Source: a virus (Duplodnaviria > Caudoviricetes). From it: a stretch of 32,434 bases of DNA. The stretch lies in IMG/VR virus record IMGVR_UViG_3300048574_000183, positions 1 to 32,434 of that record; one strand, written 5' to 3'. The notes beneath the pieces were generated by a model. That model saw nothing but the letters and a program-made list of their open reading frames with translations, was not told the DNA's origin and did no database searches. Positions 1 to 32,345 of the stretch are shown here, piece by piece. Position 1 is the first letter of the stretch. Every line of letters starts with the position of its first letter. A program made the translations under genes and the position numbers.

Positions 1-1796
1 CCGATTTCTGGAAGCATATTTCCGATGCCTTCTACCAGCATCAGCACCAGTTCGACCGCCGCGTCGCCCAGCATAGGCGCCAGGGTGACCAATGTGTCGA
101 ATAGCGTTTGAATAATTTGCGGTGCTGATTCAATCAGCACTGGCAAAGCTGCAATTAATCCCTGCGCGATCGCCATGATTAATTGCAGCGCCGCCTGCAC
201 CAGCAGCGGCAAATTTTGCAGCAATGTGGTGATCACTTGCGGAATAATCGCGATTACTGCCGGAATAAGTTCTGGAAGCGCTTCCGTCAAACCGTTCGCT
301 AAGGTGATGATCATTTCCAGCGCTGTTTCGATCAGCATCGGCAGCTGCGGCAGTAGGCCGTTGACCAGTGCCAGAACCATCTGCACCCCGGCCGAAATGA
401 TCATCGGCAAGTTATCGACCAGCGCATTGACAATCGTAATAATTGCGCTGACTGCCACGGGGATTAATTGCGGCAGAAGCGCCACAATTGTGTTCATCAT
501 CTGAGAAAATAAACCCGTTGCTGTCTGAAGCAGCATGGGCAGCAATTCACCTACCGCGCCCAAAATCGCGTCAATAGCATCCGGCATTGCAGTAATAATG
601 TTTTTAACAACCGGGACAATATTTTTTACAACCGCTTTGAACGCATCGATCAAATTCCCGGTAAGATTGGTCATATCCGCGTTCGAATTGCCCAGCCCGG
701 CAGCAAAAGATCCCAGCGCCGCCTGTAACATGCCGACTGACCCAGAAATTGTTTGTTCGCTTTCTTTGGCAAAATTACCCGCGTACTGAGAGGTATTTTC
801 AAAGAACATCTGCATTGCAACTTCAGCTTTTTCAGCGTTGGTCGCGGAAGCCCAGGTAAAATCAAGCCCCTTTGAAAGCGCGTAGGCTTCAACGGTGGTG
901 GCATTCATTGCCACCCCCAGATTGTCCATCATGGTGAAGTTGCCTTTGGCTGCCCCAGCGATGCTGTCCAGCGCCATCTGCGTATCAATACCCATTACCG
1001 ATGCCATATCGGCCGCACGCTGCATGGCCTGCTGAGTAAGCTCCAGGCTCTTTTGCTGGTCCAGGCCAGAACCTTGAAACAGCGCCCCCATTTTATTGGC
1101 GGTTGCTAGATAATCCGCCTGAGAAACGCCAAGGTTTCGGTAAGCATCTTCACCGGTCCTCTGAATGGTTTCCGCGTATTGCCCAAATACAGCTTCAGAA
1201 CCACCCAGAGCCTGTTCAAGTTCTCCGAACTGCTGCACAACTGCTTTACCTAAGCTGAATGCCAGGCCTGCCGCCGCCGCGGCGAGCGATCCGATTCCAA
1301 TGGCGGTTGCTTTCAGTATTCCGCCGATAGATTGCAGGGCTGTTCCGAAATTTCTTGTCTTTTCGCTGGCTTTGTCTTCTTTATCGCCTAAATCATTGAT
1401 ATTCTTTCCGGCATTTTTTGACTCATTAGTCATATCAGCCAGATCGGATTCTGTTTTAGTCAGCTCAACGTTCATCTTGTTAAGTGTTTCGGTTTCCCGA
1501 TTCAACTTAATTTGCAGTTCTTGGGCAGCCCGCGAAGTCGCGCCTTTTTCTTCCGCAACGCGCTCATATTCTTTTGTGACCGCGGCGACCTTATTTTTTT
1601 GGATATCGATGGATGAACTTAAAGCTTTGATTCGGCTTTCTAAACCACTTGCGTCTTTGGTCCAATCCCCCAGAGCCGCAGCAGACGCCTTGAAAGCCGA
1701 ATCAATCGTGCGCAGATCGCGATTCATCTGCGCAATACCTGCTTTAAAATCGGTTGTATCTAGGCCGACGTTTCCGGATAGCGGATTATCGCTCAT
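1..1796 (-). CDS. Tape measure protein (5' part; truncated by window edge)
   Basis: Not in the ORF track because it runs off the window. ATG at 1796 gives MSDNPLSGNVGLDTTDFKAGIAQMNRDLR..., a coiled coil, then AADMASVMGID...GNFTMMDNLG and amphipathic LPxLI repeats. Follows the tail chaperone. Confidence 0.93.
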   Translation of the reverse strand, partial: MSDNPLSGNVGLDTTDFKAGIAQMNRDLRTIDSAFKASAAALGDWTKDASGLESRIKALSSSIDIQKNKVAAVTKEYERVAEEKGATSRAAQELQIKLNRETETLNKMNVELTKTESDLADMTNESKNAGKNINDLGDKEDKASEKTRNFGTALQSIGGILKATAIGIGSLAAAAAGLAFSLGKAVVQQFGELEQALGGSEAVFGQYAETIQRTGEDAYRNLGVSQADYLATANKMGALFQGSGLDQQKSLELTQQAMQRAADMASVMGIDTQMALDSIAGAAKGNFTMMDNLGVAMNATTVEAYALSKGLDFTWASATNAEKAEVAMQMFFENTSQYAGNFAKESEQTISGSVGMLQAALGSFAAGLGNSNADMTNLTGNLIDAFKAVVKNIVPVVKNIITAMPDAIDAILGAVGELLPMLLQTATGLFSQMMNTIVALLPQLIPVAVSAIITIVNALVDNLPMIISAGVQMVLALVNGLLPQLPMLIETALEMIITLANGLTEALPELIPAVIAIIPQVITTLLQNLPLLVQAALQLIMAIAQGLIAALPVLIESAPQIIQTLFDTLVTLAPMLGDAAVELVLMLVEGIGNMLPEI

Positions 1797-2007
1797 AACC
1801 AGTCCACCTCATCGCAGTACGCTTTTTGTTCTTTTGGCGCAGAAATATAGTTGATAAAAGGAAATAACGATTCGATATTGGTCCGGTCAAGTTCTGCCAG
1901 TGACCAATGAAATGCTTTGATTAATTGAAGTTCAACTTCAAGCCATTGTCCGGGTTCGCCGTCATCGTCTAATGTCGTTTGCGCGGCTTCGCCGGAAGGG
2001 TAGGGTT
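1793..2007 (-). CDS. Tail assembly chaperone GT extension (-1 frameshift frame)
   Basis: The -1 frame after AAACCCT (2002-2008) reads ...PYPSGEAAQTTLDDDGEPGQWLEVELQLIKAFHWSLAELDRTNIESLFPFINYISAPKEQKAYCDEVDWL*. No ATG of its own; its stop overlaps the TMP ATG (ATGA). Confidence 0.8.
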
Positions 2008-17933: not shown

Positions 17934-18256
17934 TTCAAATCTCCAATTCCTGCACTAGCACTCTCTTTATCTGGTTCAAGCCCAGCATTAGAAATCAAAA
18001 ACCTATCCATACATTCAAGACAACACCATGATTGCCCCCATTCTCCATCAACTAGAGCGTGTTCATAAAAAGCAGATTCACCGGGTTCAATGCTGTGATG
18101 TAATGGCATACCAAATAAATCAAAAGCAGCACATTCATGAGTTTGCCTTACTTTCACAATACGCGTTTCTTGCTGACGAATATCAATGTCCATGTCGCCA
18201 TCGAACGGATTGTATAGAAGATAGGTTTCATCCTTGAACTTTGGAGAATAACTCAT
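17930..18256 (-). CDS. Hypothetical protein with Cys motifs
   Basis: ATG 18256 overlaps the ThiF stop; IVKVRQTHEC...DGEWGQSWCCLEC. Confidence 0.65.
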   Translation of the reverse strand: MSYSPKFKDETYLLYNPFDGDMDIDIRQQETRIVKVRQTHECAAFDLFGMPLHHSIEPGESAFYEHALVDGEWGQSWCCLECMDRFLISNAGLEPDKESASAGIGDLK

Positions 18257-19077
18257 TCCTGCGCCTCTTTCATCACGTTTTCTTCCGTGATATACCGGCT
18301 CTTGCTCGCTCCGCTCTCCAGGTCGATATACGTCGCCATCTTGCGCAGGTCCTGCGTGATCAGCATGCGCATCAGATAATCCGCCGCCTCGGCCGCCATT
18401 CGCTGATTGATCGCCAGGCCCTGCGCGTTCATCAGCGCCATTTCCGCGCAGGAAAGATTCTCGCCGGTTTCTGTTTCCTCGCCGGCGTCTTCCAGCAGAC
18501 TCGGCTCCTGTTTGACTGGGCTGGGCAGCCAGCTGCAAAAGCCCGGCAAAACGAAAGCGTTTTCTTGAACGCTTTCAGCTTTGCCCAGCAGCACCTGGCC
18601 GCTGTTTTTGGTATTGCCGCAGTCCAGCCACCAGGCACTGCTCAATCCATTCGCTATCCGGTCGATGTCTTCCCGCGCGCCGGCGTTATCCACACAGCCG
18701 ATAAAGATTTTCGCCGTGTAGTAATTCGCTCTGTTTAAAAATACAAGCAGCGAGTTATAGTTCAGCTTAATTGGAGAAGCCGAAATAGGCACGCCCCATG
18801 CCGTTCCATAACGCAGCGCCAGAGTGCTGGCCTTCCAGCGCCCAATCTCCGCCCGGGCGAAGTTCTGCCGGTAAACGTTCTTTTCCTCGACTTTATCCGG
18901 ATCAACCAGCAGGACCTGCACGGTTTTCCCAAGATCGATCATCAGGCGCGCCGCGCGTGCCACGGCCGGCGCCAGCCAGCTCCCGGTACCGCCGCACCCG
19001 ACCAATATCAGCCGGATATCGGTGTATTCCGGCAGCTTCAGCCGGCAGGCGTTCGCGAAAGATAGATCCAGCTCCAT
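18253..19077 (-). CDS. ThiF/E1-like adenylyltransferase (PRTRC ThiF type)
   Basis: LVGCGGTGSWL, DPDKVEEKNVYRQNF, GCVDN, WLDCGN...GQV; candidate catalytic Cys in NLSCAE; Q.L.INQ. Confidence 0.93.
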   Translation of the reverse strand: MELDLSFANACRLKLPEYTDIRLILVGCGGTGSWLAPAVARAARLMIDLGKTVQVLLVDPDKVEEKNVYRQNFARAEIGRWKASTLALRYGTAWGVPISASPIKLNYNSLLVFLNRANYYTAKIFIGCVDNAGAREDIDRIANGLSSAWWLDCGNTKNSGQVLLGKAESVQENAFVLPGFCSWLPSPVKQEPSLLEDAGEETETGENLSCAEMALMNAQGLAINQRMAAEAADYLMRMLITQDLRKMATYIDLESGASKSRYITEENVMKEAQE

Positions 19078-19658
19078 CAGGCCACCTCTTCCATGATCCA
19101 CGGCATTTCATAGACATTCATCGACGGCACCGCGCCGAAGTGACCGTAAATACCCACCCGCGTAATAATTTGCGGGTGCGGGCTGTTCAGCCGGCCAATC
19201 ACGGAGTACACCCGGAACCCGCTCTTTTCATCTTCCGTGTCCGTCGCGGAAAAGAACGCGTCCATAAAGTTATGGCTGTGCAGCTCAATCAGCGTATCCG
19301 CTCCAGCGTCATAACTCAGCGGGATTACGCCCGCGCTGCTGACCTTCTGCATGGGTACATTTACCGTCCACGGCCTGGCGCCAGTCAGATAGAATAAAAT
19401 CTCATTGTGACCCACCTGGTAGGCGCGCGTCAGCATCCAGCTGAATAACCGCATCGGCACGCGCCGCTCCACCATACAGTAAGGCTGCACATCCGCCAGG
19501 CCGCGCATGCCAATATTTCCAATGCGCACCATCGCTGCCAGCCCGGGCCGCTGCGCCCGCACAAACAGGCCGTTTCCGGCCGCCACATATTCATACAGCA
19601 CACCGTCCGCAATCGGCGGCAGCTGCGCGTTTTTCGCGAAAATATGATTGACAATCAT
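19077..19658 (-). CDS. JAB/MPN+ metalloprotease (PRTRC protein A type)
   Basis: YEYVAAGNGLFVRA N-domain; NEIL and HSHNFMDAFFSATD (E...HxH-x7-S-x2-D). Confidence 0.9.
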   Translation of the reverse strand: MIVNHIFAKNAQLPPIADGVLYEYVAAGNGLFVRAQRPGLAAMVRIGNIGMRGLADVQPYCMVERRVPMRLFSWMLTRAYQVGHNEILFYLTGARPWTVNVPMQKVSSAGVIPLSYDAGADTLIELHSHNFMDAFFSATDTEDEKSGFRVYSVIGRLNSPHPQIITRVGIYGHFGAVPSMNVYEMPWIMEEVA

Positions 19659-20332
19659 CGCTTCACCTCGATATGAGACTGAATACAATCGTCGATTTTC
19701 CGTCTGTCAGGAATCAATTCCTTTTCCGGAAAAACTTTTTTACCTTTTCCGGCCAGGCCATCCAGCAGCTGGCGCACGTCGCTTTTCCAGGTCGCGCTTT
19801 TCCCATCAACCAGGTGCGCGTTAAAAGGAGCCTCGAAAAATAAAGTGAATGCCTTGCGAACCTGATCCGGGTCCCCTTTGGGCTGCGGGTTGGCGCCCCA
19901 GCAGATTCCACCATCGATGTACACATTTGGCAGCGGCGCGCGCCAGGCCTGCGCATCCCGCTCGAAATCGCGCGTCTTGAGCGCCCAAAGGTAAGAACCG
20001 CCCCCGGTGGTCAGCATTACCAGCCGCGGCAGCGGTACGCTGATTAAGCGATCACCCAGCCACAGGTTTTGCATCCGCGCCGGAACAGAATAGACCGTCC
20101 ACGCGCCTTGTGCGTTGGCGCCAGTGCGCACCACGCCCGCCGGCAGCCAGCCCGAGTCGTAATCGCGCAGCGAGAAGGCCGCGTTGACATCCGCCGCACG
20201 CAGGAATTTATACGTTTCAATATCGTTGTGATCCATTTCGCGCAGCAGAAAATGCCCGTCCATGAAATACAGGGCTAAATCTGCTTTGATCGGATCATTG
20301 GGAATATCAAAGGTCGCTTCCATCGTCTTCAT
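19655..20332 (-). CDS. Prokaryotic E2 family D (PRTRC protein B type)
   Basis: VPLPRLV, LWALK, APLPNVYIDGGICWG (catalytic Cys), FFEAPFN. Start is 20332 or 20323. Confidence 0.88.
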   Translation of the reverse strand: MKTMEATFDIPNDPIKADLALYFMDGHFLLREMDHNDIETYKFLRAADVNAAFSLRDYDSGWLPAGVVRTGANAQGAWTVYSVPARMQNLWLGDRLISVPLPRLVMLTTGGGSYLWALKTRDFERDAQAWRAPLPNVYIDGGICWGANPQPKGDPDQVRKAFTLFFEAPFNAHLVDGKSATWKSDVRQLLDGLAGKGKKVFPEKELIPDRRKIDDCIQSHIEVKR

Positions 20333-23137: not shown

Positions 23138-24034
23138 TTACTCCTGTTGTCTGATCTCAAAGCGGATGTGCTGCCCGGTCAGTTCCTCCAGCCGGCGTTT
23201 GACGTGGTTCTCCAGCCAGGCGCTTCCGGATCCGTTGCAGACGCCGACCACCAGCGCCCCATCCGCGCCCATTCCGGCCGCCCAGGCCGGACGCAGCCAG
23301 GTATCAAACTGCGAGCGTGGCACCTCTTCAGCCAGCAGGCGCATGGCGTTGGTCCAGGTATCCAGGATATGCCGCGGAATCGTTGTCAACAGTTCCGGCT
23401 CGATGATTTCCGCTGCCGGCGCATACCATGGTATTTCCGGCTTGATTTGTTCTGGACGCCAATCGCGCGGCACTTTCCAGCCGTGCAGACAGCGCCAGAC
23501 CACCGCGCCCGGGCCGGGTGCGTTTTGCAGGTGATATTGGATTTCGCGGGTGCTGATGCGTGCATCGCTCGCGATTTCGCTCAGCGCGGGTTCGCGGATG
23601 CCGGCCGCCGCCAGTATTTCGAGTCGGAATTTTTCCGGCTCGCTTTCTAGACTAGAATCTGATTCAGACTCTTGACTAGAACTAGTAGTTAAAGATCTAG
23701 ACTCTAGAGGGTCGAGTCGGAGATTCTCCGACTCGCTTTCATCTTCCGCCGGCGACGGTTCGGTCTCCGCGGCGTTTTCGCCCAGCAGTTCCAGCGGCAG
23801 CGGCAGGTTGATCGCTCCGCCTGCCAGGCGGTAATCGTTATCGCCGCGCTGACCGGTGCGCACGACCAGGCCGATCTCGACCAGATAGTCCAGCGACTTG
23901 CTGACGGTCTTGTCCGTGCAGCCGGTGAATCGCTCGACCCATGCCTGATTTCCGCCGCCTGGCTGGACCAGGAACAGCAGCAGAATTTGCGCGGTCGCTC
24001 CGCGCAGGCCCCGAATCATTGCCGCGGTCAGCAT
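23138..24034 (-). CDS. Phage replication initiator with N-terminal wHTH and C-terminal DnaA domain I
   Basis: FTGCTDKTVSKSLDYLVEIGLV (wHTH); WTNAMRLLAEEVPRSQFDTWLRP...LVVGV.N....WLEN (DnaA_N). ATG 24034 overlaps the upstream TGA. Confidence 0.82.
   Translation of the reverse strand: MLTAAMIRGLRGATAQILLLFLVQPGGGNQAWVERFTGCTDKTVSKSLDYLVEIGLVVRTGQRGDNDYRLAGGAINLPLPLELLGENAAETEPSPAEDESESENLRLDPLESRSLTTSSSQESESDSSLESEPEKFRLEILAAAGIREPALSEIASDARISTREIQYHLQNAPGPGAVVWRCLHGWKVPRDWRPEQIKPEIPWYAPAAEIIEPELLTTIPRHILDTWTNAMRLLAEEVPRSQFDTWLRPAWAAGMGADGALVVGVCNGSGSAWLENHVKRRLEELTGQHIRFEIRQQE
23619..23740. repeat. Putative replication origin: two 29-bp palindromic direct repeats flanking a CTAG-rich spacer
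   Basis: TCGAGTCGGAATTTTTCCGGCTCGCTTTC (23619-23647) and TCGAGTCGGAGATTCTCCGACTCGCTTTC (23712-23740) are 25/29 identical; six CTAG tetramers at 23647-23707. Confidence 0.7.
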
Positions 24035-26317: not shown

Positions 26318-26435
26318 GATTTCCTCCTGGTCCGCCGCTTTCACGGCGGACCATATTGCCTTTGCCGCGCTGCCGCCCAGTACATCACTTTCGTACAACG
26401 GCGCCCGACCGTGGGTCGCGGTCAGCGCAGCCAGA

Positions 26436-26496
26436 TGGGGCCGGAGGACTCGAACCTCCTCGGGTGCGGGGGGTACACTCGCCGCCTGGCAGCCCC
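26436..26496 (-). ncRNA. Minimal tRNA-like element (acceptor + T arm)
   Basis: GGGGCT...GGAGG-TTCGAGT-CCTCC-GGCCCC-A; 61 nt with no canonical D or anticodon arms. Confidence 0.55.
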
Positions 26497-26502
26497 GTGA
26501 AA

Positions 26503-27102
26503 TTAACAAATATTGTTTCGTTTGATATAAGCCGCTATCGTCATCCGGTTCACATTCATGCGCCTGGCAATCTCGCTTTTTGAGATTCCCTCTGCCAGCA
26601 ATGTTTCAATCTGGCGGTCTTTTCCGGTAAGCTTCATCTTCGAGTTTTTTCTCCCTTTCGGATGACCAAGTACAACACCCTCAGATTTCTTTCTGGCCAA
26701 AGCTTCTTTTGTGCGTTGACTGATCAAATTGCGCTCGATTTCAGCCGATAAGCCAAAAGCAAAAGCTAAAACCTTACTTTGAATGTCATCTCCCAGCCGA
26801 TAATTATCCTTAATCGTCCATACTCGACATCCCTTCGTCATACAAATATTGAGAATTTCCATGATCATGAATAAGTTTCTTCCCAGCCTGGAAAGTTCTG
26901 CGCAGATGATCAAATCTCCGGAATCAACTTCGGAAAGCAAATGTCCTAGAGCGCGTTTGCTGTATGCTTTCGTACCGCTGATTGTTTCTTCAATCCAACG
27001 ATCAATATGGATATTGTTTTTTTCAGAGAAATTCGTAATTTCGAAACGCTGATTCTCCACGGTCTGTTTGTCGCTGCTGACTCGGATATAACCAAAATTC
27101 AT
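26503..27102 (-). CDS. Serine recombinase/invertase (Mpi-like)
   Basis: GYIRVSSDKQTVENQ, ELSRLGRNL, AEIERNLISQRTKEAL, C-terminal HTH. Confidence 0.93.
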   Translation of the reverse strand: MNFGYIRVSSDKQTVENQRFEITNFSEKNNIHIDRWIEETISGTKAYSKRALGHLLSEVDSGDLIICAELSRLGRNLFMIMEILNICMTKGCRVWTIKDNYRLGDDIQSKVLAFAFGLSAEIERNLISQRTKEALARKKSEGVVLGHPKGRKNSKMKLTGKDRQIETLLAEGISKSEIARRMNVNRMTIAAYIKRNNIC

Positions 27103-27380
27103 GATTCCTCGATGGTTTCTTCAAAATGAAGTCCAAAGGCAGTCACGCCTCCAGGAGCAAACGCAAGTCTTGCTATTGCCTCAGTTACTGCCACAAAAGC
27201 CTCTTTGCAGCCCTGCCCGCCATAAAGCAGCACATCACCGCGCTCACCAATAAGTTTGGTAATATCTGGCCGCGGTCCGAAGCGTAAAGGTACTTCTCCG
27301 GATTTGATGCGATTTATTTCTATCGGAACCGATAGTTGCAAGAAATCAATCAATAAATGCGGTTGAAATTCCTTTTGCAT
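27099..27380 (-). CDS. Hypothetical protein
   Basis: ATG 27380 after AAGGA; GDVLLYGG...LAFAPGGVTAFGLHFE. Confidence 0.65.
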   Translation of the reverse strand: MQKEFQPHLLIDFLQLSVPIEINRIKSGEVPLRFGPRPDITKLIGERGDVLLYGGQGCKEAFVAVTEAIARLAFAPGGVTAFGLHFEETIEES

Positions 27381-27500
27381 AGTATGTCCTTTTGCAGCTC
27401 GGCTGTCTTCCCACGACCGGCTTACGCTTTCGCGCCGATGATTCTGGTTATCCTTCCAACAAACGGTTGAGGTTACCCTGTGACACTGCATTTATTACGC

Positions 27501-27577
27501 ACGCGGCGCCGGCCTATCCAGCCTGCCGGCGCATGCTACTCTCGGCTGGGAGAGGGCCACTCAATGAGCGACCGCAT
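27501..27577 (-). ncRNA. Cloverleaf-like structured RNA (77 nt)
   Basis: Closing stem ATGCGGT/GCCGCGT encloses three hairpins: CGCTC/GAGTG, CTCTC/GAGAG and GCCGGC/GCCGGC. Confidence 0.45.
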
Positions 27578-27595
27578 CCATCGAATTTAGTTCAT

Positions 27596-27668
27596 GTCGG
27601 AGCGTCAGGTCACGATCCTGAGGATCCGCATAAGATGGTAAAGTGCATCTTGAGCGATCTGCGCTCCG
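27596..27668 (-). ncRNA. tRNA-like element with a single long internal hairpin
   Basis: Perfect 7-bp CGGAGCG/CGCTCCG stacked on TCAGG-ATCGTGA-CCTGA (5 bp + 7-nt loop); internal GATCGC..AAGATG/CATCTT..GCGGATC. Confidence 0.6.
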
Positions 27669-27815
27669 TAAGTGCCGGTTACCGTATCCGGCGTTTTTTA
27701 CTTTAACGGCGGTTCCCCATCTGGTTTTCCTCAGTCGCGGGGCTGTGATTTTATACAGTAATTACGGTCACCATATCCGCGCGTTTACTGCCCTAGACAC
27801 GAGCAGCTCCCCATG

Positions 27816-28038
27816 TTTGGCGGCCAGGATTTGAACCTGGTTGCTGTTTCTCGATCCGTTGCGTTTGCTTCTTCAGGGTCAACGCTGGCCCCAGGTCATA
27901 CAGATTGCGAAGTCTGCTGTTTCCGTTTCCGGCTGTCCTACTGACATGCTCGCGTATCGCGTTTGTCGCTGCATATCACAGCAATAAGACTCGCCTTCTA
28001 TCGGATTCGAGTGCGGTTCCCACCACGCCGCCGCCAAA
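27816..28038 (-). ncRNA. Large tRNA-like RNA (223 nt) with giant variable-arm domain
   Basis: TTTGGCGG/CCGCCAAA acceptor, GCG-TGGTGGGAAC-CGC D-like arm, ACTCG/CGAGT arm, TTGCTGT/ACAGCAA-closed 144-nt domain, canonical CCAGG-TTCAAAT-CCTGG T arm. Confidence 0.65.
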
Positions 28039-28329
28039 TTGATTCCTCAGTTTTTAAAGTACCCAACCTGAATGCACTCAATCTCATGACTTGCTTACAC
28101 TAAGGTCAAATGCACCACCTCCTCGGTTTAGATTTACCGGTAACGTCGTTATGAAAGGGGGAAAATAATTTTCAGGCATGGCGGGCGATCTCAATTTCAA
28201 ACCTTGGGGGTGCGCCGGCGAGTCCACGTGTCTCACGACAGATGCTGCCTGCATTTACGGCCCGCCATGCCTCCAGTTATCCGGATCATCCGGTAATCTG
28301 GCTGATTTGGACCAGGGCACAGAGGCGTT

Positions 28330-28725
28330 TCATCCTCCGTTGCGGTTAGGAGCGATCCCGCTGGTTTTTGCCACCCTGGTCCGGCCATTGGAGCAGGGAC
28401 AATGGCGCACGTTGGCCGGCTTTCCTTTTTCGGAATGCTCAGCCAAAATCCGTTGATGTCTCGCTCGACCTTGAAAGAAAGTTGGATGTTCAACTTCGAC
28501 TTCATTGGGCAGGTGATAAACCAATACCCATACAGATCGCGGCGAGGCGGCCATATCCCGTACCGTCTGTGATACGTTTGGATCATGCGGGTTGTAGGAA
28601 ACGATTACCCGCTCGACCAACTGACCGCCGATTTCCAAAATGGCCCGTCCTTGAATAAGACCGGTGCCGTGCTCGGATTTAATCAGTTGATGAAATTGGA
28701 GTTCCTCGCCGTTTTTGTCGAACAT
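28330..28725 (-). CDS. Hypothetical protein
   Basis: RBS AGAGG; plausible 131-aa ORF in the early operon. Confidence 0.6.
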   Translation of the reverse strand: MFDKNGEELQFHQLIKSEHGTGLIQGRAILEIGGQLVERVIVSYNPHDPNVSQTVRDMAASPRSVWVLVYHLPNEVEVEHPTFFQGRARHQRILAEHSEKGKPANVRHCPCSNGRTRVAKTSGIAPNRNGG

Positions 28726-29473: not shown

Positions 29474-29522
29474 TGCTATTTGACAACATAGTACATCTTT
29501 TTACAATTGTTGTCAAGTAGCA
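29474..29522. promoter_or_regulatory. Genetic switch: interdigitated divergent promoters within a 15-bp inverted repeat
   Basis: + strand: TTGACA(29480)-16-TACAAT. - strand: TTGACA(29516)-17-TACTAT with TG just upstream. Inverted repeat TGCTATTTGACAACA / TGTTGTCAAGTAGCA (1 mismatch). Confidence 0.85.
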
Positions 29523-29570: not shown

Positions 29571-29981
29571 ATGACAACTTTGTTTGATTTTTCCGAATGG
29601 CTCAAAAACGAACTGAGCTTACGAAATATGAAACCAGCTGATCTTGCAAAAAAATCGAAAGTCAGCAAGGCAATCATCAGTCGCTTACTGAGCGCTGAAC
29701 GAATGCCGCGTCCTGAGACACTGGTTCAAATAGCGGAAGGTTTGGGAATAACAGCTGCAAAAATGTTCGAAGAGGCTGGTTATTTACCCAAAGCCGATAA
29801 AAAATCAAATGAAATTGAAGATTTGGTATTTAATTTCTCGAAGTTATCAGAAGAAGATAAGCAAGATATTTTAGAATTGATGCGATTCAAGCAGGAAAAA
29901 CGATCAAGATTGAAAACAAACGATCAAAACAAGAGAACGAGCCGGGGGAAAAACCCGGCTCGTTCTACAATAGAACAATAA
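29571..29981 (+). CDS. CI-like XRE-family repressor
   Basis: MKPADLAKKSKVSKAIISRLLSAERMPRPETLVQIAEGL HTH; no S24 peptidase domain visible. Confidence 0.9.
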   Translation: MTTLFDFSEWLKNELSLRNMKPADLAKKSKVSKAIISRLLSAERMPRPETLVQIAEGLGITAAKMFEEAGYLPKADKKSNEIEDLVFNFSKLSEEDKQDILELMRFKQEKRSRLKTNDQNKRTSRGKNPARSTIEQ

Positions 29982-30010: not shown

Positions 30011-30673
30011 ATGCCCGAAATCATTTATACCAAAGTCGCTGGCGTGACATTCAGAAACCCCGATGGGCATTCTCGGCAGGAAATGATCCGGCGTTTTGTA
30101 TTGACGGGGGATGAGGTTTTTCTTGAGCGAGTTCCGACCGCGGACCATCCCAACGCGATCGCGCTTTTCGTCCTCACCGATGACGATTCAATCGGTGAGG
30201 ATGGTTTCGCTCAAATCGGCTTCCTGAACGAAAAACGCGCCGCGGAAATCAAACCGCTTTTAGACGCTGGTCAAATCGTCTCGGCTTCCGTGGCCAACAT
30301 TACCGGCGAAGAACAGGATACGCTTGGCGTTAATCTTGAGCTGCGCATTTATTCCCCAGAGGAATCGGCCGAATTGAATCGCAAAACGTCTGAAGCCATA
30401 TCTGCCGCGGAAGCCAAAATGAAAGCGCAGCGCTCAGCGCAGCAGCCGATGAAAAAAGTTAAAAGAAAAAGCAGCAAGAACATCATTGTCCTCTTGCTGC
30501 TTTGGTTTTTTCTGGGCTATTTGGGAGTTCATCGCTGGTATGCCGGCCGCGGGTCCTGGCTCTACACCCTTACGCTGGGCTATCTGTTGATCGGCTGGAT
30601 CGTCGATTTCTTTGTCATCGTCCTCGGCCAGTTCAAGGATTCCCGCGGCCTGCCAGTAACCTGGTCTTTCTAA
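30011..30673 (+). CDS. HIRAN domain - TM2 domain fusion protein
   Basis: TKVAGVTF...LERVP...HPNAIAL...IGFL (HIRAN); LLWFFLGYLGVHRWYAG...TLGYLLIGWIVD (TM2). Confidence 0.8.
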   Translation: MPEIIYTKVAGVTFRNPDGHSRQEMIRRFVLTGDEVFLERVPTADHPNAIALFVLTDDDSIGEDGFAQIGFLNEKRAAEIKPLLDAGQIVSASVANITGEEQDTLGVNLELRIYSPEESAELNRKTSEAISAAEAKMKAQRSAQQPMKKVKRKSSKNIIVLLLLWFFLGYLGVHRWYAGRGSWLYTLTLGYLLIGWIVDFFVIVLGQFKDSRGLPVTWSF

Positions 30674-32307: not shown

Positions 32308-32345
32308 GTCCGTGAGGTCGGCGGTTCAAATCCGCCCGCCCCGAC
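32308..32345 (+). other. att site: 3' half of tRNA-Pro
   Basis: GT-CCGTG-AGGTC-GGCGG-TTCAAAT-CCGCC-CGCCCCG-A; the acceptor 3' strand CGCCCCG-A is Pro-type; no 5' half upstream; next to the integrase. Confidence 0.85.

What the first reader, a model, noticed from the sequence alone, without database searches (positions are those of the whole stretch)
27390..28062. Tandem array of tRNA-mimic structured RNAs in the early operon
Seen: ~670 bp without a convincing ORF contains, on the transcribed (minus) strand, closely spaced units each closed by an acceptor-like stem, mostly stacked on a T-arm-like hairpin. They are 27816-28038, 27596-27668, 27501-27577 and a weaker one at 27393-27490. A further unit lies at 26436-26496. 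They share architecture but not sequence, and none has a canonical anticodon arm or encoded CCA. Known: RNase P, RNase Z and the CCA-adding enzyme recognise the acceptor/T-arm half. Inference: these are processed into stable small RNAs, possibly decoys for anticodon nucleases or tRNA-sensing defences, or they punctuate the long early mRNA. I cannot assign them to a named RNA family.
Basis: partly seen in the sequence, partly recalled or inferred. Interest (0 to 1): 0.82.

Follow-up and report, generated by a model that had tools for sequence, protein, structure and literature searches.

The report
Phage tRNA chassis with swappable middles
A temperate phage, likely of Anaerolineae bacteria, carries a packed row of folded RNA elements in its early operon; the main one belongs to a widespread phage family, absent from Rfam, that keeps only the outer frame of a tRNA around a freely exchanged middle, and is likely cut out by the host's tRNA-trimming enzymes.

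Summary
The array is real but uneven. Unit A (27816-28037, minus strand) belongs to a phage RNA family of 39 collected members (63-222 nt). They keep a covarying 7-bp acceptor stem, a D-like arm and a T arm, with an unrelated middle of 13-172 nt. There is no anticodon, no encoded CCA (0 of 39) and no fixed synthetase identity. Close relatives of this phage carry the same frame with different middles. B and E also have tRNA geometry. C is unproven and D unsupported; D arrived with a 1-kb invertase cassette that a relative lacks. The design has precedent: T4 RnaC (same layout, role unknown), plant t-elements and the DS6A tRNA-like domain. This scan has noted similar anticodon-less mimics on other DNA. 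Best reading (inferred, no RNA data): host RNase P and 3' trimming cut the units out, splitting the early message and releasing stable RNAs. A decoy for anticodon nucleases is unlikely. New variant of a known kind.

The parts
29488..29516 (-). Sigma-70-like promoter facing the array, back to back with the promoter of the cI-like repressor (29571-29981, +); likely start of the early transcript
   Evidence: Consensus scan, 10 of 12 matches (5 sites found, 4.1 expected in shuffles, so position is the argument); HTH_3/repressor hits
28174..28272 (-). Further upstream folded element closed by a 13-bp stem; status unknown
   Evidence: Perfect 13-nt inverted repeat, z -2.7; no homologue tested
28051..28062 (-). 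boxA-like antitermination motif 13 nt before unit A
   Evidence: One mismatch to a recalled boxA consensus, one of 4 such sites on this strand; within 300 nt upstream of 5 of 39 family members against 0 of 39 in each of three control sets
27816..28037 (-). Unit A: 7-bp acceptor stem (8 with 28038), C8-G9, D-like arm, 172-nt folded middle (27841-28012), 5-bp T stem with UUCAAAU loop, no CCA
27672..27814 (-).
   Evidence: Pattern in about 160 viral contigs; base before hairpin 1 pairs with a loop base of hairpin 2 in 72 of 82 copies, shuffle mean 41, max 55; this copy fits but has only a 3-bp first stem
27597..27668 (-). Unit B: 7-bp acceptor stem, one long hairpin in place of D and anticodon arms, 5-bp T stem with AUCGUGA loop
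   Evidence: z -4.3; perfect 7/5 score; same T-arm type in L154b; low-depth variants fall in the loop or keep a wobble pair
27501..27577 (-). Unit C: three hairpins closed by a 4- to 7-bp stem; tRNA geometry unproven (13-nt loop where the T loop would be)
   Evidence: z -1.2; not picked by the descriptor; kept in close relatives
27393..27490 (-). Unit D: weak fold at the head of the inserted cassette; follows unit A directly in other relatives
   Evidence: z -0.2; joints 27491-27817 in runs X2 and X5, one study; no viral hit
26503..27501 (-). 999-nt low-GC insert: unit D, 93-aa ORF of unknown family (27099-27380), Mpi-family serine invertase (26503-27102)
   Evidence: Replaced by 6 nt in a 33-kb relative and C abuts E in a second study; GC 0.44 against 0.55; NF009949 at 332 bits, cut-off 272
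26436..26496 (-). Unit E: 61-nt mini-cloverleaf with stub D arm, C-rich loop in the anticodon position and a T arm identical to that of Anaerolineae tRNA-Gln(UUG)
   Evidence: similar 62-70 nt units with C-rich loops in L003, L026, L177, L200, L225, L235
26328..26431 (-). Unit F (missed): 9-bp closing stem with two inner hairpins (26365-26431), then a 10-bp hairpin (26328-26353) just before the ribosome-binding site of the next gene
   Evidence: z -4.1; no T arm; no homologue outside close relatives tested
32308..32345 (+). 3' half of tRNA-Pro beside the integrase region: likely attachment site, points to an Anaerolineae host
   Evidence: Exact 38-nt match in 18 of 401 genomes of the class of G001; tRNA-Pro in 3 of 4 loci scanned

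Best explanation
The stretch is a packed row of structured RNA modules in a phage early operon, in which units A, B and E keep the acceptor-stem and T-arm frame of a tRNA without a decoding arm, and host RNase P with 3' trimming enzymes would likely cut them out. Shown: the frame of family A is under selection (covariation, fixed 7-8 + 5 bp length), the middle is not conserved and is exchanged between close relatives, and the modules are shuffled. Inferred: the early transcript, protected from Rho by a boxA-type site, reads through the array; RNase P cuts at the foot of each tRNA-shaped unit and RNase Z or exonucleases cut behind it; this splits the long message in front of the next gene and releases stable, non-decoding RNAs like T4 RnaC. 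On this reading the middle is tolerated filler. The frame likely descends from a mobile tRNA-Tyr.
For: Covariation: 67 cells with changes on both sides, 0 of 500 shuffles as high, slid controls 9-16. Per position in 39 members: Watson-Crick pairs at positions 1-5 in 34-38 of 39 against 11-28 expected; the -1:73 pair in 24 against 11.8; chance level from -2 outwards. T stem in true register pairs in 35-37 of 37 at each position. Reciprocal test: 7 of 7 metagenome loci picked by the 3' end alone carry the 5' motif and a matching stem, three members with a compensatory D-stem change. 22 of 28 viral pattern hits pass an acceptor/T descriptor against 6 of 120 cellular hits. No CCA in 39, discriminator A18/U13/C5/G3. 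Middles unrelated, no antisense match in the phage. Spacers of 1-19 nt between A, A2, B, C, D, as in a tRNA operon. 14 of 39 members end within 60 nt of a gene start with a ribosome-binding site. Neighbours are mostly early, recombination and replication genes. Candidate hosts: RNase P RNA 4 of 5, RNase Z-like full-length hit 5 of 5 (1 over cut-off), CCA/poly(A) family 5 of 5, NusB 5 of 5. Precedents: T4 RnaC has the same layout; t-elements are cut this way (PMC1920247).
Against: No transcript, end or cleavage was observed. One cut site would be enough to split a message, so six or seven units in a row are not explained by punctuation alone. A 172-nt middle that folds well (z -2.8) is more than filler needs. 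C8 replaces the usual U8, and the -1:73 pair in most members could shift or slow RNase P cleavage (established knowledge). Members were collected with strict patterns, so invariance of the D-like arm is partly built in, and relatedness inflates shuffle tests. C, D, F and A2 do not fit the tRNA frame.
Confidence: 0.5

Rival explanations
1. The tRNA frame is a natural expression scaffold: it is cut out and stabilised in order to present the variable middle (or the C-rich loop of E-type units) as the working part, for example an antisense or protein-binding RNA, and phages swap these cargoes.
For: Close relatives put middles of about 30-60 nt between the same ends and in front of the same A2/B neighbours (joints). 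Middles range 13-172 nt, mean z -0.8, 6 of 33 below -2. E-type loops read CCCCCC or CCUCCC, the latter complementary to ribosome-binding sites. STnc100, a prophage sRNA, has a similar terminal stem, variable middle and stacked 3' hairpin (Rfam alignment), and PasD/STnc100 act through seed regions (PMC13192938, passages).
Against: No target found: no antisense match in the phage or in 401 + 48 Anaerolineae genomes. Middles share no motif. Members with 13-15 nt middles have no room for cargo.
Confidence: 0.22
2. The released RNAs are decoys: after CCA addition they soak up host factors that attack or sense the tRNA acceptor end or elbow (3'-end-modifying toxins, uncharged-tRNA sensors).
For: The conserved part is exactly the acceptor end and elbow; several copies per phage raise the dose: 16 further tRNA-shaped units on the sense strand near 11 of 38 members against 1 antisense. 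A TLD-only RNA is suggested to titrate SmpB (PMC4131195, passage). Acceptor-end toxins in phage defence are recalled, not looked up.
Against: No identity elements at 1:72, 2:71, 3:70 or 73, so no specific tRNA is copied. For anticodon nucleases the needed loop is missing. No link to a defence system was tested.
Confidence: 0.13
3. The units stay in the transcript and act as folded insulators: they keep untranslated RNA away from Rho and nucleases, together with the boxA site.
For: boxA-like site 13 nt upstream; -1:73 pairing suggests the precursor form is under selection; A2, C, D and F are folded but not tRNA-shaped.
Against: An insulator needs no 7+5 bp geometry, T-loop or GG-bearing D loop; stem pairing stops sharply at tRNA length.
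Confidence: 0.1
4. They are decaying tRNA genes or remains of integration into tRNA genes, without function.
For: The frame resembles mobile tRNA-Tyr genes in L293 and L156; E shares a T arm with host tRNA-Gln; a mobile invertase cassette sits in the array.
Against: Four pair types at acceptor positions 1-4 with almost no mismatches across phages whose cellular copies lie in several phyla; the D-like arm differs from every tRNA printed. Decay would not keep this.
Confidence: 0.05

Closest known systems
Phage T4 RnaC (species 1 RNA; GenBank NC_000866 misc_RNA 'small, stable RNA'; 'biological roles unknown', PMC3014915 passage)
   Same: Terminal acceptor-like stem, long hairpins in place of the anticodon arm, canonical T arm; similar size; not in Rfam; phage-encoded in a row of small RNAs.
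   Different: RnaC lies in a true tRNA cluster of a lytic phage and lacks the D-like arm; it scores 17.9 bits with the family model, about as T4 tRNA-Ser (15.1) and below the pattern-only background (up to 39.7), so it is not a member. Family A has hypervariable middles and lies in temperate-phage early operons. RNase P processing of RnaC is recalled, not read.
t-elements of plant mitochondria (PMC1920247, passages)
   Same: tRNA-like folds with a conserved T arm that direct RNase P/RNase Z cuts in mRNA precursors and can be released with added C and A residues.
   Different: Organellar, single, not a sequence family, no arrays, no exchanged middle.
tmRNA tRNA-like domain, DS6A 'TLD only' RNA (PMC4131195, passages)
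   Same: Phage-encoded acceptor plus T arm without an anticodon stem.
   Different: Family A has no conserved G3:U70 or A73 alanine identity, no tag frame, and has a paired D-like arm.
STnc100 / PasD sRNAs of lambdoid prophages (Rfam RF02076; PMC13192938, outline and passages)
   Same: Prophage RNA with terminal 7-bp stem, 5' hairpin, variable middle and stacked 3' hairpin in the Rfam consensus.
   Different: No T-loop; no match to the window; described as base-pairing sRNAs, not as tRNA mimics in the passages read.
Polycistrons of irregular tRNAs and allo-tRNAs (PMC5389517, passages; review PMC7609411, passages)
   Same: Rows of irregular tRNA-like sequences in mobile contexts, some not used in translation.
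   Different: Those keep anticodon arms and often 8/4 or 9/3 stems; family A is 7/5 (often 8/5) with no anticodon arm.
Unnamed candidate structured RNAs of viruses (PMC10690425, passages and tables)
   Same: Automatic catalogue of 8,495 DNA-virus candidates from IMG/VR, some tRNA-like.
   Different: Five tRNA-like ones are discussed; the one checked (DNAVirus_1850, 66 nt, all marine) does not fit. The alignment files could not be read, so family A or the A2 module may be listed there unnamed.

Membership tests
Canonical tRNA | 7-bp acceptor stem stacked on a 5-bp T stem with T loop | tested here: met
   A and B 24 of 24, E 23 of 24; C and D not picked
Canonical tRNA | Anticodon arm with 7-nt loop, U33 and purine 37 | tested here: not met
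   No ARAGORN or Rfam call; middles 13-172 nt unrelated; E loop is ACCCCCC
Canonical tRNA | Conserved synthetase identity at 73 and 1:72-3:70 | tested here: not met
   Discriminator A18/U13/C5/G3; four pair types at positions 1-3
T4 RnaC-type stable RNA | Acceptor-like stem and T arm around a non-canonical middle | tested here: met
T4 RnaC-type stable RNA | Sequence homology | tested here: not met
   17.9 bits with R1, background level
T4 RnaC-type stable RNA | Lies in a tRNA cluster | tested here: not met
   No tRNA in the window; some members lie beside tRNAs (L003, L011, L014, L029, L134, L156)
T4 RnaC-type stable RNA | Accumulates as a discrete stable RNA | not testable with these tools
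   Only contigs were available
t-element | mRNA ends coincide with the element's ends | not testable with these tools
   No raw RNA reads
tmRNA / TLD | G3:U70 and A73, tag reading frame | tested here: not met
   No tmRNA call; position 3 pairs vary; E has G:C there
Bacterial Y RNA (YrlA) | Ro60/TROVE gene nearby and acceptor stem closed by a loop | tested here: not met
   No TROVE hit among 48 ORFs; acceptor stems are open-ended; no Rfam hit. The permuted layout of YrlA is recalled.
Allo-tRNA / irregular tRNA polycistron | 8/4 or 9/3 branch with an anticodon arm | tested here: not met
   T stem 5 bp in 35-37 of 37 at each position; no anticodon arm
STnc100 / PasD | Match to RF02076 | tested here: not met
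   No match in the window at E up to 10 or in 16 family loci at E up to 1
GOLLD / ROOL and Rfam self-cleaving ribozymes | Match to the Rfam models | tested here: not met

The most novel reading that the evidence does not exclude
Temperate phages across several bacterial phyla use a tRNA-Tyr-derived frame as a natural expression vector: host tRNA-processing enzymes cut out and stabilise whatever RNA is dropped into the anticodon position, and phages exchange these cargoes by recombination in the conserved ends, building polycistronic, boxA-protected batteries of small effector RNAs. This would be the natural counterpart of the laboratory tRNA-scaffold method and would explain T4 RnaC.
Probability: 0.2. 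Interest if true: 0.85.

Novelty: new variant of a known kind. Interest (0 to 1): 0.6.

Why it matters
Non-decoding, tRNA-shaped phage RNAs have been known in T4 for decades without a role (PMC3014915). Here is an alignable family in which evolution has separated frame from middle, so the question 'is the frame or the middle the working part' can be tested directly with short (63 nt) and long (222 nt) natural members. These RNAs are invisible to ARAGORN and Rfam, so phage early operons hold a layer of unannotated RNA genes; a second uncatalogued module (A2 end) occurs in about 160 viral contigs by exact pattern alone. If the middles are cargo, this is a natural RNA expression scaffold.

Tried and rejected
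Expression: no RNA holder listed. Runs labelled RNA-Seq were contigs flagged 'probably DNA'; a short form of A reached contig depth 574 in X2 and 26-35 in X23, but depth and ends of contigs cannot show expression, so this is not used. BLAST of the array against GenBank phages: one 37-nt match, E 0.7; of a short member: T-arm matches only. Neighbour-protein search found one weak locus. Exact patterns for B, E and D found nothing in viral contigs; no pattern scan was run for C or F. DNA search of 401 Anaerolineae and 48 family genomes found only the invertase, tRNA-Gln T arms, one more family-A member (L287) and chance hits. R1 on 151 genomes: 4 hits, three are real tRNAs (Ser, Ser, Tyr) and one is at background level. 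One search used a mis-written pattern and says nothing. The descriptor was off by one base and was redone. The D-loop/T-loop tally is wrong (loose regex); the listing was read by eye instead. ARAGORN at lowered thresholds called 257 genes and is noise. The 52-aa ORF over unit A is rejected: the start codon positions covary as a stem and lengths keep no frame. A twister-like reading of D (recalled motif) found no Rfam support. A 12-nt complement between C and the invertase mRNA (E 0.11) is taken as chance, since C also occurs without the invertase. ESM Atlas gave nothing usable for the 93-aa and 156-aa proteins. L006 was counted among the 39 with an uncertain 3' end; L023 and L149 were left out as background-level. 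Paper searches returned nothing.

Full report
Setting. The window is a whole 32,434-nt virus record: integrase, cI-like repressor, SSB, replication and ParB genes, endolysin, terminase, portal, capsid and tail genes. A 38-nt 3' half of tRNA-Pro at 32308-32345 matches exactly in 18 of 401 genomes of the class of G001, a Litorilinea bin, so the host is likely an Anaerolineae bacterium. The flagged stretch lies about 1.4 kb downstream of a promoter-like site facing away from the repressor, on the strand of the early genes.

Observation. ARAGORN and Rfam find nothing; at E up to 10 only unit E gives faint tRNA-Sec and mascRNA scores of about 17 bits. Folding z-scores are -3.0 for A, -4.3 for B, -1.2 for C, -0.2 for D and +0.9 for E. 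A descriptor for a 7-bp stem stacked on a 5-bp stem with a 7-8 nt loop gives full marks to A and B and 23 of 24 to E, but not C or D; it also gives 22 hits on this strand and 26 on the other, so geometry alone is no proof. Sliding windows show the array only slightly more stable than the rest. The case rests on comparison.

Family A. A pattern from the 3' end of A found 3 viral loci; one had the same 5' end with a 28-nt middle in place of 172 nt. A 5' pattern found 28 viral loci and 120 cellular ones; 22 of 28 and 6 of 120 carry a complementary acceptor strand and T arm. The reverse test agrees: all 7 metagenome loci chosen by the 3' end carry the 5' motif; 6 score 47-69 bits with the model R1 and one, with an insert in the D arm, 39.5, while pattern-only matches reach at most 39.7. 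On 28 aligned sequences 92% of cells pair, 67 cells change on both sides, no shuffle of 500 reaches this and slid controls give 9-16. In 39 distinct members, positions 1-5 pair in 34-38; the base before position 1 pairs with base 73 in 24 (11.8 expected); further out pairing falls to chance. None encodes CCA and the discriminator varies. Three members change the D stem on both sides. Read by eye, the 8 members with a GGAGGG D loop and a clear T arm all have non-standard T loops (7 with an 8-nt loop), and no GGUGGG member has that loop; this may be descent or an elbow contact. Cellular copies lie in Bacillota, Planctomycetota, a betaproteobacterium and an archaeal bin, and one in an Anaerolineae-class genome. 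Neighbours with a PHROG label are mostly regulators and recombination or replication genes, with some lysis and head genes (73 of 118 candidate ORFs were scanned). Of 24 tRNAs printed, only two mobile tRNA-Tyr genes share C8-G9, the GCG D stem and, in one case, the T arm, so the frame likely descends from such a gene.

The middle. Middles are 13-172 nt, unrelated except between close members, modestly folded (mean z -0.8; this copy -2.8) and without an antisense match in the phage or in the host-class genomes searched. Contigs from other runs join the same two ends across different middles of about 30-60 nt, in two cases in front of the same A2. The middle is therefore exchanged between close relatives.

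Other units. B has the T-arm type also seen in family member L154b. E has the T arm of host tRNA-Gln and a C-rich loop; similar small units occur in six other loci, found by a descriptor written for the purpose and not tested for covariation. The varying pair holds in 72 of 82 copies with a first stem of 4 bp or more (90 examined), against 41 in shuffles; it has no Rfam match and lies within 400 nt of 10 of 39 family-A members in this or a related form, never antisense. F folds well (z -4.1) but has no T arm. A 33-kb relative lacks 26503-27501, so that C abuts E (a second study); in other relatives D follows A. The ancestral row is thus A-A2-B-C-E-F, and D came with a 93-aa ORF and an Mpi-family invertase. 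Arrays are common: 16 further tRNA-shaped units, some real tRNAs, lie on the sense strand near 11 of 38 members against 1 antisense. A boxA-like site (recalled consensus) lies 13 nt before A and is mildly enriched upstream in the family.

Mechanism. What is kept is what tRNA-processing enzymes read (established knowledge): the elbow and a helix of 12-13 bp. What synthetases, ribosomes and anticodon nucleases read is not kept. Candidate hosts have RNase P RNA, an RNase Z-like protein, CCA/poly(A) enzymes and NusB. I infer excision by RNase P and 3' trimming, which splits the early message and releases stable RNAs (0.5). Solitary members often end just before a gene start (14 of 39 within 60 nt), which favours a cut-site role; the gene-free tandem row here and the well-folded long middle favour the RNAs as products, possibly with the middle as cargo (0.22) or as decoys for acceptor-end factors (0.13). 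No step after the sequence was observed.

Known relatives. T4 RnaC, fetched and folded here, has the same layout but is not homologous by the model; a review calls its role unknown (PMC3014915, passages). Plant t-elements show the proposed chemistry (PMC1920247, passages). DS6A TLD (PMC4131195, passages), irregular tRNA polycistrons (PMC5389517, PMC7609411, passages), STnc100/PasD (PMC13192938, outline and passages) and GOLLD/ROOL (PMC12286853, passages) differ as tabulated. Nine answered concept searches and one motif search showed no description of this family; the library lacks most subscription and older papers, and the alignment supplements of PMC10690425 were unreadable and those of PMC8040213 not opened, so an unnamed prior listing is possible. 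This scan's earlier notes report similar anticodon-less mimics in other phages; none shares sequence with unit A. They are unchecked and are not counted as support.

Verdict. Real, selected, uncatalogued; a new variant of a known kind. The exchangeable middle and the mixed, shuffled array are the new points. Interest 0.6.

Noticed in passing
window 27674-27709 (-); L160-L278: Small two-hairpin pseudoknot module, about 160 viral contigs by exact pattern, strong covariation of one loop pair, no Rfam match; unannotated in Pectobacterium phage ZF40 downstream of cI. Worth its own family description.
   Followed up: partly
window 26436-26496 (-); L003:2721-2790, L026:1020-1084, L154:1749-1975, L177/L200, L225:604-666, L235:572-636: Mini-tRNA-shaped units with a C-rich (CCCCCC or CCUCCC) loop in the anticodon position; the loop could pair with ribosome-binding sites.
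   Followed up: partly
window 26503-27501 (-): Low-GC 999-nt insert with an Mpi-family invertase and a 93-aa orphan ORF (10 homologues, no family); no clear terminal repeats.
   Followed up: partly
window 18253-20332 (-): Prokaryotic ubiquitin-like cluster in the phage: ThiF/E1, JAB and E2 family D genes in a row.
   Followed up: no
window 28174-28272 and 28270-28340 (-): Two more well-folded stretches upstream of the array (z -2.7 and -2.6); the RNA region may start near 28340.
   Followed up: no
L159, about 250-390 nt upstream of the family-A member: Three copies of a 28-nt CRISPR-repeat-like sequence with short spacers in front of a promoter and the tRNA-shaped unit.
   Followed up: no
L224:929-1054 (+): A tRNA with normal acceptor, D and T arms and a 72-nt stretch replacing the anticodon arm: the same idea on another frame.
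   Followed up: no
L227:970-1070 (+): A viral contig carries an RprA-like sRNA 3' half (61.9 bits, gathering 70).
   Followed up: no
L153:1069-1254 (-): Family-A member with a long insert inside the D-like arm as well as in the middle.
   Followed up: no
window 23647-23940: Repeats inside the replication-initiator-like gene, probably the origin (seen as descriptor hits).
   Followed up: no
window 1165-1854 (+), 175-504 (+) and 30011-30673 (+): Genes on the strand opposite to their neighbours; the last is a HIRAN plus TM2 membrane protein beside the repressor, possibly an immunity or exclusion gene.
   Followed up: no
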